Positions 3,452 through 48,358 of a stretch of 64,000 nucleotides of DNA are shown piece after piece. The notes beneath the pieces are model-generated. The model saw only the letters and a list, made by a program, of their open reading frames with translations. It was not told the DNA's origin and made no database searches. The stretch is taken from NCBI GenBank assembly GCA_022360955.1, contig JAKSBV010000309.1, positions 6,053-70,052 on the forward strand, read 5' to 3'. The translations under genes and the position numbers were made by a program. The first letter of the stretch is position 1, and the number at the start of each line of letters is the position of its first letter. Source of the DNA: Bacillota bacterium (lineage in GTDB: Bacteria > Bacillota > Clostridia > SK-Y3).

Positions 3452-3480
3452 TAGTGGGGAGTGGGGGGTAGGGAGTGGGG
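3452..3480 (+). repeat. GGGGAGT-type purine word array, begins 1 nt after a stop codon
   Basis: TAGTGGGGAGTGGGGGGTAGGGAGTGGGG directly follows TAA at 3449-3451. Confidence 0.7.
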
Positions 3481-13812: not shown

Positions 13813-13842
13813 AGTGGGGAGATAGGAGTAGGGGGTGGGGAG
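13813..13842 (+). repeat. GGGGAGT-type word array (G-rich on plus strand) in the 5' UTR region of the Cas12f/TnpB-like gene
   Basis: AGTGGGGAGATAGGAGTAGGGGGTGGGGAG; complementary in character to 13987-14023; contains hairpin GGGTGGG-gaga-CCCACCC at 13833-13850. Confidence 0.7.
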
Positions 13843-13986: not shown

Positions 13987-14023
13987 CTCACTCCCCGCTC
14001 CCCACACCTCACTCCCCACTAAC
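13987..14023 (-). repeat. GGGGAGT-type purine word array immediately 3' of adhE (purine-rich on the sense/minus strand)
   Basis: minus strand GTTAGTGGGGAGTGAGGTGTGGGGAGCGGGGAGTGAG, starting 6 nt after the adhE TAG. Confidence 0.7.
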
Positions 14024-23561: not shown

Positions 23562-23602
23562 TTAGTTGATAGTTGACAGCTGACAGTTGACAGTTAGTAA
23601 CC
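23562..23602 (+). repeat. AGTTGACAG-type word array
   Basis: TTAGTTGATAGTTGACAGCTGACAGTTGACAGTTAGTAACC. Confidence 0.65.
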
Positions 23603-23690: not shown

Positions 23691-23715
23691 TTAACTACCC
23701 ACTACCCACTAATCA
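23691..23715 (-). repeat. AGTGGGT-type purine word array immediately 3' of the spermidine-synthase-like gene
   Basis: minus strand TGATTAGTGGGTAGTGGGTAGTTAA, directly after TAG at 23716-23718. Confidence 0.65.
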
Positions 23716-27888: not shown

Positions 27889-27966
27889 TAAATAACCCGT
27901 GAACCATTGAATCCGAATCTCCATTGTGAACTGCAAGTGATATATGATATAAGGAGGTTACTTATT

Positions 27967-28641
27967 ATGGGAATTTTTAGTCGTCTTTCTACGGTCATAA
28001 AATCTAATATCAATGATGCCATTTCAAAGGCAGAAGATCCTGAGAAGATGCTGAATCAAATGATCATTGACATGTCCGAACAATATAACAAAGCGAAGGT
28101 GGAAGTGGCCGCCGCTATCGCCGACGAGAAAAAACTTAAAAAGCTACTGGATGAGCACGAAGCGAAGGTGAATGAGTGGTCAAGCAAAGCAGAACTGGCC
28201 GTTTCCAAAGGTGATGACAGTCTTGCCATTGCCGCACTCAATCGCAAAAAAGAATATGAAAGTCTTGCGGAACAGTATAAGACCCAGTGGGAAGCACAGA
28301 AGGCTGCAACGGATAAACTGAAAGCCAGTCTGCGAGACCTTAGTACTAAAATAGAGGAAGCAAAACGCAAAAAGAATCTTTTGATCGCCAGAGCTAAAAG
28401 AGCGGAAGCACAAAAATCGATTCAAAAGACCATGTCGGGCCTGAATGATACCAGCGCTTTCGATTCTTTTAACCGTATGGAGGAAAAGGTCAACGATATC
28501 GAAAGTCGGGCAATGGCTGAAGTAGAACTCAACGAAGCAATGGCCGGCGACGATTTGGAAAAACAATTCTCCGAATTGGAAAATGAGAATGGTGAAGTCA
28601 TGGACGAATTAGCCGCATTAAAGGCTAAGATGGGAAAGTAA
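27967..28641 (+). CDS. pspA: PspA/IM30 family protein
   Basis: MGIFSRLSTVIKSNINDAISKAEDPEKMLNQMI N-terminus and long coiled coil; start at ATG 27967 behind AAGGAGG. Confidence 0.9.
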   Translation: MGIFSRLSTVIKSNINDAISKAEDPEKMLNQMIIDMSEQYNKAKVEVAAAIADEKKLKKLLDEHEAKVNEWSSKAELAVSKGDDSLAIAALNRKKEYESLAEQYKTQWEAQKAATDKLKASLRDLSTKIEEAKRKKNLLIARAKRAEAQKSIQKTMSGLNDTSAFDSFNRMEEKVNDIESRAMAEVELNEAMAGDDLEKQFSELENENGEVMDELAALKAKMGK

Positions 28642-28646
28642 CGACA

Positions 28647-28685
28647 TAGTAGCGTACAGTGTACAGGATACAGCATACAGTAAGG
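28647..28685 (+). repeat. GTACAGG/ATACAG-type word array 3' of pspA
   Basis: TAGTAGCGTACAGTGTACAGGATACAGCATACAGTAAGG, starting 6 nt after TAA. Confidence 0.7.
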
Positions 28686-28695
28686 TAGAATATCC

Positions 28696-28727
28696 AAAAG
28701 GTAATCCATTCGGGTTACCTTTTTTTG
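28696..28727 (+). terminator. intrinsic terminator of pspA
   Basis: AAGGTAA-tccattcggg-TTACCTT followed by TTTTTT. Confidence 0.65.
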
Positions 28728-28739
28728 AACAAAAATTTG

Positions 28740-28759
28740 GGCAGACCCTTTGGTCTGCC
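28740..28759. terminator. second GC-rich hairpin between convergent genes
   Basis: GGCAGACC-cttt-GGTCTGCC; modest T/A runs on both sides. Confidence 0.4.
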
Positions 28760-28816
28760 TTTATCGGTTTAGGCGCCTTGATCTCCTTGCGATGCATCAT
28801 GCCCCATTGATTTTAA

Positions 28817-28849
28817 CTATACGCTGTATCCTGTACACTGTATCCTGAT
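28817..28849 (-). repeat. inverted partner word array, 3' of the DUF4097 gene (purine-rich on its sense strand)
   Basis: plus strand CTATACGCTGTATCCTGTACACTGTATCCTGATT, complementary in word content to 28647-28685. Confidence 0.7.
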
Positions 28850-28870
28850 TTTAGCCGTACCCCGCATCCC

Positions 28871-30226
28871 TTATCTTTTTTTAAAGTGAATTCTCCCTGA
28901 GCCGGTTCTCACTCTAAAAGGTGTTCCCCCGCCGTTTACTTTTCCTTCCACTTCACTGTCCCTGCTTCTATCATCATTAAATTTTATCTCTGTATCATCA
29001 AACTCACAGGAAATGCGGCCGGACAATGTGCTTGCATCTATATCAAACTTAAAGTCCTCCGGTAAATATAACCTCACATCACCGGAGCGAGCGTGAACCC
29101 TATAGCCGTCCGGCGTTTCTTCAAATGCATGGGATAAATGGATATCTCCCGATCCGGTTCGGAACGAAGATCCTTTTTTGAAGAGCCCCTCTTTTATCCA
29201 TACGTCTCCCGATCCGGTTTCCAGCTCTACTTTTCCTTCGTACGATCCCACATCTATATTCGCCGAACTCGCCGAAACGCGGACGTCTGCTTTTACCTTT
29301 TGCGCCTTAATATCTCCCGAACCGGAAGTGATCTCTATTGCATCGGCCACTGCCTCATTCAACGTTAATGTTCCGGACCCCGATTGTATATGAACCGTTC
29401 CGGCCGTCATATCTGTTAATATTTTATCCCCTGAATTGGATTGAACCTTTGCGCTCCGGGCTTTAAGCCGGTCAACCTTCAAATTGCCGGAGCCGGCCTG
29501 TATCTCTAGAATATCCGTCTCAATATCTGCAAGCCTTTTGTCCCCTGACGCAGAAATAATAGCTGCCTCTTCTGCCGCAAGATGCTGCAAGTCCAAATTG
29601 CCTGAACCCGCTTCTATATTTACGGTATCTGCCTGAATATTTTTCAAGGTCTTGTCCCCGGAAGAAGAAATAACGTTCAGAACACTTTTGTTTTTCAGCC
29701 CGTCAATGTCTATCTCCCCCGAGCCGCTTTTGACCTCAATCTGTTGAAGCTGCTCCGGAAGTTCTACCTCTAGATTCAAATCCATTCTTCTCACCTTTAA
29801 ACCGTTAAAAACCATGGATTGGTAAACAACAATCCCGTCTTTTTCTTTTGTTTCACTTTTCATGCTTGAGCCGGATGCATATTGAACTTCTAAAACAATC
29901 TTATTGTCCTCTTCTCTTACATCCAAAAATATGTCGTCGATCAGCGGTCGTGTACCCCTACTCTCTATTTCTTTATGCAGCACCGCACGTACCACGTCTG
30001 CTTTTGTTGTTCTGACTGTTACATCGCCACTATTGCAGATGACTTCAATTTCTCGCTGCTCGTTCAATGTGATTTCTTCCTTTTGCGTATCTTTTTCAAG
30101 CTTGGTTTTGCCAAATACATCGGAAAAACCCGTTGCACCAACCTCTTGTCCGTTTATTGTAACGGTGCAACCACTCATAAAAGAGATGAAAATCAATAAT
30201 ACACCTATCACTACAAATTTTTTCAT
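28871..30226 (-). CDS. DUF4097 beta-strand repeat lipoprotein (LiaG-like putative adhesin)
   Basis: lipobox FISFMSGC; many SGSG(D/N)(I/L) repeat units. Confidence 0.8.
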   Translation of the reverse strand: MKKFVVIGVLLIFISFMSGCTVTINGQEVGATGFSDVFGKTKLEKDTQKEEITLNEQREIEVICNSGDVTVRTTKADVVRAVLHKEIESRGTRPLIDDIFLDVREEDNKIVLEVQYASGSSMKSETKEKDGIVVYQSMVFNGLKVRRMDLNLEVELPEQLQQIEVKSGSGEIDIDGLKNKSVLNVISSSGDKTLKNIQADTVNIEAGSGNLDLQHLAAEEAAIISASGDKRLADIETDILEIQAGSGNLKVDRLKARSAKVQSNSGDKILTDMTAGTVHIQSGSGTLTLNEAVADAIEITSGSGDIKAQKVKADVRVSASSANIDVGSYEGKVELETGSGDVWIKEGLFKKGSSFRTGSGDIHLSHAFEETPDGYRVHARSGDVRLYLPEDFKFDIDASTLSGRISCEFDDTEIKFNDDRSRDSEVEGKVNGGGTPFRVRTGSGRIHFKKR

Positions 30227-32959: not shown

Positions 32960-33205
32960 ATGTCGAACAGCCTCCAATTTTTAATAAAGAATTGCTTTCT
33001 ACTGCGTTATTATTTTTTAATAACCTCTTCTCCATGAAAATGCATACTTATATATTACAATATTGCTGTTGACATTGTCTACAAGTAATGTGAAATCCTT
33101 TATGTAAAACTTTGCTGTATACACCCAAAACAAAACAGCAGTGTGGACCCACACTGCTGCCTGTTTGCTTTCCTGCCCATTCATATAGAAATTTTTTCTT
33201 TTTGA

Positions 33206-46492: not shown

Positions 46493-46728
46493 GGGTGTAT
46501 TCAGTGTAGGTGAAGAAATTTATGGAAATGACCTTATATACCGGAGGTCGGAGATCAGAGGGCGGAAGTCGGAATATAACCAAACAGGGACGCAAAGTAA
46601 TCATAGACAAGCGTATCGTAAATGGTGGGTGGTCCATTCTCACCTCTCATCTCTCAGCCCTCAACTATTTTTTAGCCTTGGAATATCAGTTATTGGAATA
46701 ATTTTCTTCACTTCAAATTTATGTGCCC
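46493..46728 (+). mobile_element. F-element, complete copy with 9-bp target-site duplication
   Basis: alpha end GGGTGTATTCAGTGTAGGTGAAGAAATTTATGGAA, beta end (reverse complement) GGGCACATAAATTTGAAGTGAAGAAAATTATTCCAA; flanked by TTTTTTCAC at 46484-46492 and 46729-46737. Confidence 0.85.
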
Positions 46729-47473: not shown

Positions 47474-47630
47474 CCTATCACCCTATTTTCTAATTTGAAT
47501 TGATAAAGTATCTTTCATAAAAGCCGAGGAAGGCTACCCTCGGCTTTTATCATTACTATACGTACTTTTAGCTCAGCTTTATACATTTACAAGCCTGTTG
47601 AGCATTACCTTCTTTATTCATTTTTCTTCC

Positions 47631-47660
47631 CTAATTCTTCATTCTTAATTCTTCATTAAT
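47631..47660 (-). repeat. GAAGAAT/GAATTAA-type purine word array immediately 3' of ybaB
   Basis: minus strand ATTAATGAAGAATTAAGAATGAAGAATTAG directly after TAG at 47661-47663. Confidence 0.6.
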
Positions 47661-48026: not shown

Positions 48027-48058
48027 TTAGTGGGGAGTAGGGAGTGGGGAGTGGGGAG
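48027..48058 (+). repeat. GGGGAGT-type word array (four G-runs) upstream of ybaB
   Basis: TTAGTGGGGAGTAGGGAGTGGGGAGTGGGGAG. Confidence 0.7.
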
Positions 48059-48168
48059 TTGTTGTGTCCCCCATAATACCCGGACTGCCTATCCCAAATC
48101 ATCTGAATCACTATTTTATACTATAATAACGTATATGCATAAATCTCTCAAGTATTAATTGCATGAAA

Positions 48169-48345
48169 GGATATATAAATTCCTGTTGAAGAAGATTATT
48201 TGACCAAATAATATTCCAAGGTCAAAAAATAGTTTAAGGCTGAGGGCTGAACATGAACGGCCCACCGCTCATACTTTACTCTTTATTCTACAATCACTCA
48301 TAACCTAATTCTTAATTATTCATTATTCATTATTAATTATTCTTT
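48169..48345 (-). mobile_element. F-element, diverged copy without alpha terminus, 3' of dnaX
   Basis: GGATATATAAATTCCTGTTGAAGAAGATTATTTGACCAAATAATATTCCAAGGTCAAAAAATAGTTTAAGGCTGAGGGCTGAAC aligns with the reverse complement of 46640-46728; ends in an AT-rich word array. Confidence 0.6.
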
Positions 48346-48358
48346 GCCCTTCCCCTCC

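What the first reader, a model, noticed from the sequence alone, without database searches (positions are those of the whole stretch)
28642..28870. Purine-rich oligonucleotide 'word arrays' start within a few nucleotides of stop codons on the sense strand, with different words at different loci
Seen: after pspA (TAA) comes CGACATAGTAGCGTACAGTGTACAGGATACAGCATACAG. After the convergent DUF4097 gene, on its own sense strand, comes ...AATCAGGATACAGTGTACAGGATACAGCGTATAG. The two arrays are inverted partners that flank two terminator hairpins.

The same architecture, with other 7-8-nt words, follows six more stop codons.
- gsp-like gene (3452): GGGGAGT words.
- adhE (14023-13987): GGGGAGT words.
- SpeE-like gene (23715-23691): AGTGGGT words.
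- ybjN-like gene (27864): GGGGAGT words.
- ybaB (47660-47631): GAAGAAT words.
- dnaX (48358-48300): GGAGGGG then GAATAAT words.

Most begin with a T(T/A)AGT-like lead-in. Similar arms (GGAGGTCGGAGATCAGAGG and its pyrimidine partner) form the variable centre of F-elements.

Inference: this is a modular 3'-UTR element class whose position and strand bias are conserved while the repeated word varies. I do not recognise it as a described repeat family. Possible roles are RNA stability, protein binding platforms, or long-range pairing between arms.
Basis: seen in the sequence. Interest (0 to 1): 0.6.

Follow-up and report, generated by a model that had tools for sequence, protein, structure and literature searches.

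The report
Heptamer-repeat arms welded to gene ends
The short 7-base "word arrays" after stop codons are real and occur genome-wide, but they belong to an already described class of bacterial heptamer repeats; here they prove to be the same 4-5-unit inverted arms that enclose a small four-helix-bundle ("rRNA intervening-sequence") gene, which gives a testable lead on where such repeats come from.

Summary
The genome is a 4.6-Mb draft Clostridia genome whose nearest named relative is Wukongibacter. It holds about 430 period-7 arrays, against almost none of period 8-11.

Of 316 arrays that are not part of the F-element MITE, 112 have the 5' end of their purine-rich strand within 15 nt of a same-sense stop codon (14.5 expected). 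A further group lies 16-28 nt upstream of start codons in antisense. Arrays are typically 4-5 units long with a (T/A)TAGT lead-in.

This is not an undescribed 3'-UTR class. Rehm et al. 2015 described the same rules in Xanthomonas and Nostoc: four units, sense strand after stops, antisense before starts, and convergent pairs.

New here:
- Words turn over at orthologous stop codons across three genera, and by 14-nt and patch changes between strains.
- The four-unit rule also holds for AT-rich words that cannot form G-quadruplexes.
- Both PF05635/TIGR02436 genes of this genome are enclosed by inverted arrays of two of its abundant word families.
- 49 of 61 related genes in metagenomes are bracketed the same way.

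Other windows of this scan reached the same link before. How the arrays spread and what they do as RNA remain inferred.

The parts
28646..28682 (+). Lead-in (ATAGTAGC) plus a four-unit array GTACAGT GTACAGG ATACAGC ATACAGT. It starts 5-13 nt after the pspA stop and forms the 5' arm of the inverted pair.
   Evidence: Nearly invariant in six other samples of the species: one A>G change (GTACAGG to GTACGGG) in two of them.
28696..28729 (+). Terminator-like hairpin (AAAAGGTAATCC/GGGTTACCTTTT) with a T-run, downstream of pspA and inside the loop between the arms.
   Evidence: (I6)
28740..28759 (-). Terminator-like hairpin GGCAGACC/GGTCTGCC with a T-run, for the convergent DUF4097 gene and inside the loop.
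28816..28847 (-). Second arm. On the minus strand it reads AATCAGG ATACAGT GTACAGG ATACAGC GTATAGT, with the same unit order as the first arm.
   Evidence: In the other haplotype an A>G change repairs the single C.A mismatch of the stem.
28848..28870 (-). Gene-proximal lead-in and decayed heptamers between the DUF4097 stop (28871-28873) and the arm. About 23 nt are replaced as a patch, in heptamer register, in other strains.
   Evidence: (D1)
3452..3480 (+). TAGT + GGGGAGT x4 array directly after the TAA of the gsp-like gene.
13987..14023 (-). TTAGT + GGGGAGT-type array x4.6, 11 nt after the adhE stop.
13813..13842 (+). Partner arm of the adhE array (G-rich on the plus strand). On the minus strand it is the pyrimidine-rich arm just upstream of the next gene.
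23691..23715 (-). GGGTAGT array after the SpeE-like stop. It has 2.6 units here and two more units (+14 nt) in a 98%-identical strain.
23564..23595 (+). AGTTGAC x4.6 array. Its lead-in side faces the start of the minus-strand gene to its left, so it is the antisense-before-start type.
   Evidence: gene model in L172
27861..27888 (+). TTAT-TAGT + GGGGAGT-type array x3 after the ybjN-like stop. It is a solo array, invariant in six other samples.
47609..47660 (-). AT-rich array (AAGAATT/AAGAATG words) starting at the ybaB stop.
48300..48358 (-). Weak GGAGGGG lead, then a GAATAAT-type array x4 after the dnaX stop.
48029..48059 (+). AGTGGGG x4.4. On the minus strand this reads (ACTCCCC)4-ACTAA directly upstream of the ybaB ribosome-binding site.
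46538..46670 (+). CGGAGGT-type and CTCATCT/CAGCCCT-type four-unit arms inside an F-element MITE. This is a separate dispersed element that carries a heptamer hairpin in its centre.

Best explanation
**What it is.** The word arrays are the arms of heptamer-repeat hairpin elements. Each arm is a degenerate AT-rich lead-in ending in TAGT plus about four 7-nt units, 28-35 nt in all. The topology is always 5'-(NNNNAGT)n ... (ACTNNNN)n-3', so the lead-in end faces the neighbouring gene.
- After a stop codon the sense strand therefore reads the purine-rich arm.
- Before a ribosome-binding site it reads the pyrimidine-rich arm.

**Forms of the element.** The full form encloses a roughly 120-aa four-helix-bundle gene (PF05635/TIGR02436). 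This is the S23p/IVP gene of 23S-rRNA intervening sequences, related to the DGR accessory protein Avd. The finding locus is a gene-less pair that encloses the two terminators of pspA and the DUF4097 gene. Most arrays in the genome are solo arms.

**Shown here**
- the anatomy, placement and topology of the arrays
- inheritance at orthologous stop codons, with replacement of the word
- changes in 7-nt register between strains
- bracketing of both IVP genes of this genome, and of most metagenomic homologues, by such arms.

**Inferred**
1. The arrays are maintained and rewritten by copying from other arrays (gene conversion or re-insertion), possibly with the IVP protein, rather than by local slippage alone.
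2. Where both arms are transcribed, they form a stem of about 28 bp that RNase III cuts, as it does in rRNA intervening sequences. This would uncouple the decay of neighbouring cistrons.
3. Solo arms are largely tolerated remnants.
For: **Excess and placement**
- Period 7 is in excess and the arrays are intergenic.
- 112 arrays abut same-sense stops against 14.5 expected. The 3' ends almost never abut genes.
- Complementary partners lie 41 times downstream and 0 times upstream.
- Unit number peaks at 4-5 in every word family.
- The lead-in is TAGT in 67 of 114 arrays.

**Copying rather than independent growth**
- Identical imperfect unit orders recur at dispersed loci. GGGGAGTGGACAGTGGGGAGT occurs at 12 loci in G003 and GGGGAGTGGGGGGTGAGGAGT at several in G000.

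**Turnover**
- In the ribosomal-protein operons of G009, G005 and G003, four-unit arrays are welded to the same stop codons but carry different words.
- One spacer is empty in G003 and filled differently in the other two.
- One hairpin is intact in G003, while in G009 its distal arm has decayed.
- Between strains that are 98% identical there is a +14-nt change and a 23-nt in-register patch, both at the gene-proximal end.

**Link to the IVP gene**
- G000 has two PF05635/TIGR02436 genes.
- One follows pyrG and is flanked by GGGTAGT arms, with pyrG's TAG stop lying inside the arm.
- The other lies between two FlgK-like genes and is flanked by AAGAATT/AAGAATG arms.
- Both arm words are among the genome's abundant word families.
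- In metagenomes, 49 of 61 homologues are bracketed by inverted repeats (control 6). The best period is 7 in 56 of 61, the median arm is 32 nt, and the left arm is purine-rich in 39 of 42. In 27 of 34 cases the upstream same-strand ORF ends within 20 nt of the arm.

**Literature**
- The Coxiella IVS has a 28-bp terminal stem, tandem GACAGAT heptamers of variable number, and RNase III cuts in the stem (PMC4990558).
- Rehm 2015 gives the same placement rules in Xanthomonas and Nostoc.

**Fold at the finding locus.** The arms pair, with z = -7.8 and -7.6 on the two strands.
Against: - Only about 13% of arrays have a complementary partner within 1 kb, so most cannot form the stem.
- At the finding locus each transcript meets a terminator-like hairpin before the second arm. 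The stem would therefore form only on read-through.
- No IVP gene with GGGGAGT, GACAGTT or GTACAGT arms exists in this assembly.
- Both IVP cassettes sit at the same loci in other strains, so no mobility was seen directly.
- No clean filled-versus-empty junction or target duplication was found.
- Eight of 21 more distant relatives have a PF05635 match but no GGGGAGT arrays.
- No RNA data could be examined.
- Why the arms are welded to stop codons is not explained.
Confidence: 0.6

Rival explanations
1. The arrays are selected cis-acting 3'-UTR or intercistronic RNA (or DNA) elements: G-quadruplexes, protein-binding platforms or stabilisers. On this view position and strand are kept by selection for a function at gene ends.
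For: - Four-unit arrays persist at the same stop codons of ribosomal-protein genes across three genera.
- The ybjN array is invariant, and the pspA arm nearly so, in six other samples.
- A mutation in the other haplotype repairs the one mismatch of the stem.
- GGGGAGT x4 fits the G4 motif, and Rehm 2015 showed G4 folding in vitro for similar words.
Against: - The words are replaced wholesale at orthologous sites, and some spacers are empty in a relative.
- Only 22 of 545 period-7 arrays contain a canonical G4 motif. AT-rich and GACAGTT words show the same 4-5-unit preference.
- Terminator-like hairpins are no more frequent after array-bearing genes: 21 of 112 against 121 of 590.
- The adjacent genes share no functional theme (pspA, adhE, dnaX, pyrG, flgK, ribosomal-protein genes).
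Confidence: 0.2
2. The arrays are ordinary long simple-sequence repeats made in place by replication slippage (7 nt being favoured by the polymerase, as Mrazek proposed) and merely filtered by selection out of coding and promoter DNA.
For: - The structure is tandem, and a 14-nt (two-unit) length difference exists between strains.
- Copy number varies in the Coxiella IVS.
- Heptamers are the commonest LSSR class in many genomes.
Against: - The narrow 4-5-unit length is not what slippage gives.
- The lead-in is fixed and the topology is absolute, 41 against 0.
- The same imperfect unit orders recur at many dispersed loci.
- The two arms at the finding locus share unit order.
- Placement is 8-fold over a null that already restricts arrays to their own spacers.
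- The arms bracket one particular gene family in 49 of 61 metagenome loci.
Confidence: 0.1
3. The arrays are terminal or subterminal inverted repeats of transposase-driven MITEs (or REP/REPIN-like elements moved by a RAYT), inserted with a target preference for TA-rich stop-codon contexts.
For: - The CGGAGGT and GAGGGTT arrays really are internal arms of a dispersed MITE of about 200 bp (note e1-2992506).
- A related 258-bp MITE is polymorphic between strains at window position 33001.
- 79 arrays lie at contig ends, as dispersed repeats do.
Against: - For the other word families no conserved sequence lies beyond the array.
- No target-site duplication is seen at the finding locus or in the three-genome comparison.
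- Loops range from 20 nt to several hundred nt of unrelated sequence.
- Most arrays are solo.
- Rehm et al. also found no link to IS elements.
Confidence: 0.1

Closest known systems
G-rich heptamer repeats of Xanthomonas (GGGAATC) and Nostoc (GGGGAYT), Rehm et al. 2015, PLoS One, PMC4692102
   Same: [quoted passage not shown]
- Over-representation between genes.
- Placement within 50 bp after a stop on the sense strand, or upstream of an ORF on the antisense strand.
- Overlap with stop codons.
- Convergent inverted pairs.
- Position conserved between related species.
   Different: - Here one genome carries many unrelated words, including AT-rich and GACAGTT-type words that cannot form quadruplexes.
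- The lineage is Clostridia.
- The words turn over at fixed sites.
- The arms are shown to bracket the genome's PF05635 genes, a link that paper does not make.
23S-rRNA intervening sequences carrying an S23p/IVP ORF (Coxiella burnetii, Leptospira and others; Warrier et al. 2016, PMC4990558)
   Same: - Inverted terminal repeats forming a stem of about 28 bp.
- Tandem heptamers in the stem, whose number varies between strains.
- The enclosed gene family (PF05635/TIGR02436) is the same as in the two full cassettes of this genome.
   Different: - These elements lie between protein-coding genes, not in 23S rRNA.
- The finding locus and most copies carry no gene.
- RNase III cleavage is not shown here.
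STRR heptanucleotide repeats of heterocystous cyanobacteria (own knowledge: Mazel et al. 1990) and heptameric LSSRs (Mrazek et al. 2007, as described in PMC4679880)
   Same: Dispersed intergenic tandem heptamers, with several word families in one genome and no known function.
   Different: The words and the phylum differ. I did not find the placement rules or the link to a gene stated in those descriptions as available to me.
TAACTGA repeats of marine Beggiatoaceae, Cyanobacteria and Bacteroidetes (MacGregor 2015, PMC4679880)
   Same: - Intergenic heptamer direct repeats of 2-6 units with a strong orientation rule relative to start codons.
- Some overlap upstream stop codons.
- One metagenomic IVP cassette found here (L148) has TCAGTTA (= TAACTGA) arms.
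   Different: That family has a single word, placed mostly directly upstream of start codons, and is interpreted as a translational operator.
REP/BIME and REPIN elements of Gammaproteobacteria
   Same: Short extragenic palindromic repeats at the 3' ends of genes and between cistrons. This is a functional analogy: stem-loops that can shape mRNA decay.
   Different: REPs have a conserved sequence and a RAYT transposase and no 7-nt periodicity. None of these defining features was met or tested here.

Membership tests
Heptamer repeat class of Rehm et al. 2015 / heptameric LSSR | Tandem units of 7 nt in excess over other periods | tested here: met
   - TRF gives 626 rows for period 7, against 116 for period 6 and 214 for period 8.
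- Strict arrays: 213 for period 7, against 1 or fewer for periods 8-11.
Heptamer repeat class of Rehm et al. 2015 / heptameric LSSR | Preference for four units | tested here: met
   The mode is 4-5 units in the GGGGAGT, GGGTAGT, GACAGTT and AT-rich families.
Heptamer repeat class of Rehm et al. 2015 / heptameric LSSR | Placement close after stop codons on the sense strand and close upstream of ORFs on the antisense strand | tested here: met
   - 112 arrays lie within 15 nt of a same-sense stop (null 14.5).
- 30 lie within 30 nt of an antisense start (null 19.5).
- The opposite orientation is depleted.
Heptamer repeat class of Rehm et al. 2015 / heptameric LSSR | Convergent inverted pairs occur | tested here: met
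   41 arrays have a complementary partner, always 3' of the purine-rich arm. At the finding locus the arms are 27 nt and 93% complementary.
Heptamer repeat class of Rehm et al. 2015 / heptameric LSSR | G-tracts able to form a G-quadruplex | tested here: not met
   Only 22 of 545 period-7 arrays carry a canonical G4 motif. The finding's own GTACAGN words have none.
Heptamer repeat class of Rehm et al. 2015 / heptameric LSSR | Repeats are transcribed | not testable with these tools
IVS-type cassette with S23p/IVP gene | Terminal inverted repeats forming a stem of about 28 bp | tested here: met
   - Finding locus: 27-nt arms that pair in the fold.
- The IVP-1 and IVP-2 cassettes have arms of 27-33 nt.
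IVS-type cassette with S23p/IVP gene | Heptamer periodicity of the arms | tested here: met
   In metagenome cassettes the best period is 7 in 56 of 61.
IVS-type cassette with S23p/IVP gene | Encloses a PF05635/TIGR02436 ORF | tested here: not met
   - The finding locus encloses only two terminator-like hairpins.
- The feature is met at two other loci of the same genome.
- The finding is therefore at most a gene-less derivative.
IVS-type cassette with S23p/IVP gene | Inserted in a 23S rRNA helix | tested here: not met
   All the loci examined here lie between protein-coding genes.
IVS-type cassette with S23p/IVP gene | Excised by RNase III | not testable with these tools
   No RNA data were available. 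This is known for rRNA IVSs only from the literature.
MITE | Conserved terminal inverted repeats plus target-site duplication | tested here: not met
   - There is no direct repeat next to the arms at 28646 and 28870.
- There are no clean junctions in the three-genome comparison.
- This is true only of the F-element that carries the CGGAGGT arms (note e1-2992506).
REP/REPIN | Associated RAYT (TnpA-REP) gene and a conserved REP consensus | not tested
No single consensus exists across the word families.

The most novel reading that the evidence does not exclude
The pentameric four-helix-bundle protein (IVP/S23p, an Avd relative) is the factor that recognises and rewrites heptamer arrays. One subunit would read one 7-nt unit, since the lead-in plus four units make five units. 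It would do so by a copying mechanism that acts at the transcribed ends of genes. If so, STRR/LSSR-type heptamer repeats across many phyla would be the footprint of a new kind of protein-dependent genetic element without a transposase, and rRNA intervening sequences would be one special case of it.
Probability: 0.2. Interest if true: 0.85.

Novelty: new member of a known kind. Interest (0 to 1): 0.5.

Why it matters
Heptamer repeats have been known since 1990 (the STRRs) and the S23p/IVP protein since the 1990s. Both lack an explained origin or function.

This genome makes three points:
- The 'four units, welded to gene ends' rule holds for words that cannot form quadruplexes. This undercuts the main published rationale for the rule.
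- Arrays stay at the same stop codons for long periods while their words are replaced.
- The arms are the same objects that enclose the IVP gene, both in this genome and in most of 61 metagenomic loci.

Together these turn an old descriptive puzzle into experiments: IVP binding, RNase III mapping, and array turnover with and without the gene.

Practically, the arrays break assemblies (79 lie at contig ends). They also shift predicted starts and stops: the pspA start is 60 nt downstream of the longest ORF, and the stop of pyrG lies inside an arm.

Tried and rejected
- **Rfam.** No family covers the arrays or the F-element; the only hit in the window is SRP RNA.
- **Named relatives.** Wukongibacter has no arrays after pspA, so it gave no help on orthology.
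- **Ungapped partner search.** It gave 37 partners against 7 in the control. I replaced it with a local-alignment search.
- **Three-frame stop idea.** The idea was that arrays are tolerated after stops because they stop all frames. I rejected it as a general explanation: GGGGAGT and GTACAGN arrays contain no stop codons (read directly).
- **G-quadruplex.** Rejected as the reason for the four-unit rule.
- **Terminator association.** No enrichment.
- **All-subfamily IVP alignment.** It was too divergent for a collection scan, so I used the IVP-2 subfamily alone.
- **Mobility of the IVP cassettes.** Look-ups of the exact proteins found the cassettes only at the same two loci in other strains.
- **ybaB look-up.** It found nothing.
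  - a generic AGT(N4) pattern count against PF05635 presence across the class
  - TRF on sampled DNA of the 30 relatives
  - a read-level look at RNA ends.
Full report
**1. What is at the coordinates**

pspA really begins at the ATG at 27967, which has an AAGGAGG ribosome-binding site. The longest ORF starts 60 nt earlier. The gene ends with TAA at 28639-28641.

After 12-13 nt (CGACATAGTAGC) come four heptamers, GTACAGT GTACAGG ATACAGC ATACAGT (TRF 28655-28682).

The convergent DUF4097 gene (28871-30226, minus strand; Pfam) is followed on its own sense strand by about 22 nt of decayed heptamers. Then come AATCAGG ATACAGT GTACAGG ATACAGC GTATAGT.

The two arrays form a 27-nt inverted repeat, 93% complementary and 134 nt apart. 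They have the same order of unit variants, so they are copies of each other and not two chance arrays.

Between them lie a terminator-like hairpin with a T-run for each gene. Folded as RNA, either strand pairs the arms into a stem of 21-27 bp around the two hairpins. The energies are -82.6 and -90 kcal/mol, with z = -7.8 and -7.6 against shuffles.

**2. The phenomenon is genome-wide and far from chance**

The window lies on contig C351 of a 4.64-Mb, 522-contig genome of about 40% G+C. The nearest named relatives by PspA are Wukongibacter (Clostridia, Peptostreptococcales), at 76-79% amino-acid identity.

- TRF finds 626 period-7 rows, against 116 for period 6 and 214 for period 8.
- A strict detector (at least four units, at least 81% self-match) finds 213 arrays of period 7. 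It finds 43 of period 5, 20 of period 6, one each of periods 8 and 9, and none of periods 10 and 11.
- The main words are GGGGAGT, AATAATG, AAGAATT, CGGAGGT, GGGTAGT, AAGAATG, GAGAGTT, GACAGTT and GAGGGTT.
- 371 of 429 arrays are intergenic, and 79 lie at contig ends.

The CGGAGGT, GAGGGTT and GAGAGTT arrays are embedded in conserved flanks.

For the remaining 316 arrays I oriented each on its purine-rich strand.

- The 5' end lies within 15 nt of a same-sense stop codon in 112 cases. Random placement and orientation inside the same spacers gives 14.5.
- A second group has its 5' end 16-28 nt from an opposite-strand start codon, just beyond the ribosome-binding site.
- The 3' end almost never abuts a gene: 8 cases against about 25 expected.
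- A pyrimidine-rich end next to a stop is depleted: 2 cases against 14.8 expected.

Stop codons next to arrays are TAG in 49%, against 27.5% genome-wide. In roughly a third of cases the stop lies inside the array or its lead-in.

The lead-in is a C-poor, AT-rich heptamer. It ends in TAGT in 67 of 114 GGGGAGT-type arrays; TTAGT occurs 31 times and ATAGT 26 times.

**3. One topology explains both strand rules**

Where an array has a complementary partner within 1 kb, the partner is always 3' of the purine-rich arm: 41 cases against 0. An element written 5'-(NNNNAGT)n ... (ACTNNNN)n-3' reads the same on both strands.

Any gene that ends next to it therefore sees the purine-rich arm after its stop. 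Any gene that starts next to it sees the pyrimidine-rich arm before its ribosome-binding site. Examples are the adhE spacer and (ACTCCCC)4-ACTAA in front of ybaB.

The arrays are thus not specifically 3'-UTR elements. They bound intergenic spacers, with their lead-ins outward.

Only about 13% of arrays have a complementary partner, so most are solo or face an arm made of another word.

**4. Length**

Unit number peaks at 4-5 in every family, including the AT-rich and GACAGTT families. Only 22 of 545 period-7 arrays contain a canonical G-quadruplex motif.

The four-unit preference therefore cannot be explained here by the need for four G-tracts. That was the rationale offered for the Xanthomonas and Nostoc repeats.

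**5. Relatives and strains**

GGGGAGT arrays occur in four other genomes of the same family (G003, G005 and G009, with two copies in G001). They occur in none of 26 other relatives searched.

At the orthologous ybjN-pspA locus, G003 lacks both arrays of this genome but has a GGTTCAC x5 array in the ybjN leader.

A three-way comparison of a ribosomal-protein operon was informative. It used G009, G005 and G003, whose genes are 80-89% identical.

- The same stop codons carry four-unit arrays in all three genomes, but with different words.
  - After one gene the words are GGGGAGT/GGACAGT (G009), GGGGAGT/GGAAAGT (G005) and a GGGTAGT-like word (G003).
  - After another, G005 and G003 read TAA-TTAGTGGGTAGT..., while G009 reads TAA-TTAATTAATAATGAAT... 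at the same junction.
- One spacer is 27 nt and empty in G003 but holds two arrays in G009 and two quite different ones in G005.
- Where G003 has an intact GTTCAC x4 / GTGAAC x4 hairpin, G009 keeps the stop-proximal arm and only a decayed distal arm.

Within the species I compared contigs about 98% identical from six other samples and one other MAG.

- The pspA arm is nearly invariant: two samples carry one A>G change.
- The ybjN array is invariant.
- An A>G change in the other haplotype turns the single C.A mismatch of the stem into C-G.
- The 23 nt nearest the DUF4097 stop are replaced as a patch that keeps the 7-nt register. The replacement resembles GTACAGC-TGACAG units found at another locus (C50).
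- The SpeE-like array differs by exactly two units (14 nt).

Position is therefore conserved, while words and unit numbers change mainly at the gene-proximal end.

**6. Copying rather than independent slippage**

The same imperfect unit orders recur at dispersed loci. GGGGAGTGGACAGTGGGGAGT occurs at 12 places in G003, and GGGGAGTGGGGGGTGAGGAGT at several places here. The length is narrow, and the lead-in and topology are fixed. Slippage alone would not give these features.

**7. The link to a gene**

Earlier notes of this scan, made on other genomes, suggested that such arrays are the arms of a cassette carrying a small four-helix-bundle gene. I tested this.

The genome has exactly two PF05635/TIGR02436 genes.

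- **IVP-1** lies directly after pyrG. It is enclosed by inverted GGGTAGT/GGGTGGT arms, and pyrG's TAG stop lies inside the arm.
- **IVP-2** lies between two FlgK-like genes. It is enclosed by AATTAAG/AAGAATG arms that touch the upstream TAG and its own stop.

Both arm words are among the abundant word families of the genome.

In related genomes:
- The genes of G003 and G009 are flanked by GTTCAC-type heptamers, a word also common in their spacers.
- In a sister genus the gene is flanked by 11-mer arrays instead.

A scan of metagenome contigs with the IVP-2 subfamily returned 80 loci. Of the 61 loci with enough flank:

| Measure | Result |
|---|---|
| Gene bracketed by an inverted repeat | 49 of 61 (control 6) |
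| Best period of the arm is 7 | 56 of 61 |
| Median arm length | 32 nt |
| Distance between arms | 344-555 nt, just the gene |
| Left arm purine-rich | 39 of 42 |
| Upstream same-strand ORF ends within 20 nt of the arm | 27 of 34 |

One cassette (L148) has TCAGTTA arms, the TAACTGA word of Beggiatoaceae.

The proteins match the pentameric structures 2GSC (Xanthomonas XCC0516) and 2RLD. PF05635 is regarded as related to the DGR accessory protein Avd (PMC10053308).

**8. What is known**

- Rehm et al. 2015 described the four-unit preference, both placement rules, overlap with stops and convergent pairs in Xanthomonas and Nostoc. They also reported transcription and conservation of position between species. 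They found no link to mobile elements.
- MacGregor 2015 described the TAACTGA repeats and summarises Mrazek's heptamer-rich LSSRs.
- Warrier et al. 2016 reported on the Coxiella 23S-rRNA intervening sequence, which encodes S23p. It has a 28-bp terminal stem, tandem GACAGAT heptamers whose number differs between strains, and RNase III cuts in the stem.
- A search of the held library for TIGR02436, PF05635 or S23p found no paper that ties this gene to dispersed heptamer repeats.

**9. Verdict**

The arrays are a new-lineage, multi-word member of a known repeat class.

The best-supported reading is that they are arms of IVS-type hairpin elements, in gene-carrying, gene-less and solo forms. The evidence for that reading is:
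- shared anatomy
- shared placement
- co-residence with the IVP genes
- the metagenome survey.

Three things remain inferences: that the IVP protein acts on the arrays, that paired arms are RNase III substrates in mRNAs, and how the arrays come to be welded to stop codons. No mobility event was caught, since both IVP cassettes sit at the same loci in other strains.

This prevented the wider co-occurrence test and any look at RNA.

Noticed in passing
window 27907-27966: The longest pspA ORF starts at a TTG at 27907. The real start is the ATG at 27967, behind an AAGGAGG ribosome-binding site. The extra 60 nt belong to the ybjN-pspA spacer.
   Followed up: yes
window 33001 (spacer between the Rce1-like and 2-hydroxyacid dehydrogenase genes): Two other strains (L172, L174) carry a 258-bp insertion here. 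Its left end (CTAGAATTAGAAGTATAATCGTATG) matches the F-element end, but its centre lacks the heptamer arms. This is a MITE insertion polymorphism within the species.
   Followed up: partly
window 29157-29310: One TARA metagenome strain (L173) has an in-frame deletion of about 150 nt in the DUF4097 gene, giving 395 aa instead of 451.
   Followed up: no
L062, L063 (G008, G004; sister genus): The PF05635 genes of this genus are flanked by tandem arrays of period 11 (AACAATGGTTT / GTTCAACGATG types) instead of 7. These genomes have no GGGGAGT heptamers.
   Followed up: no
L148 (metagenome contig JAESFG010000123.1): This IVP cassette has TCAGTTA x5 arms. That is the reverse complement of the TAACTGA repeat described in marine Beggiatoaceae, Cyanobacteria and Bacteroidetes.
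   Followed up: no
window 46538-46670 and about 60 other loci: The F-element MITE carries in its centre a pair of four-unit heptamer arms (CGGAGGT-type, and pyrimidine-rich arms that read GAGGGTT-type on the opposite strand). It looks as if a heptamer hairpin had been captured and then amplified by the MITE.
   Followed up: partly
L061 1900-1957 (G000 contig C73): Inside the IVP-1 cassette, between the 5' arm and the gene, lies a perfect 14-bp hairpin (AGGAATTATTAATC / GATTAATAATTCCT) of unknown role.
   Followed up: no
genome-wide: 79 of the 429 period-7 arrays lie next to a contig end, which suggests that the arrays fragment the short-read assembly.
   Followed up: no
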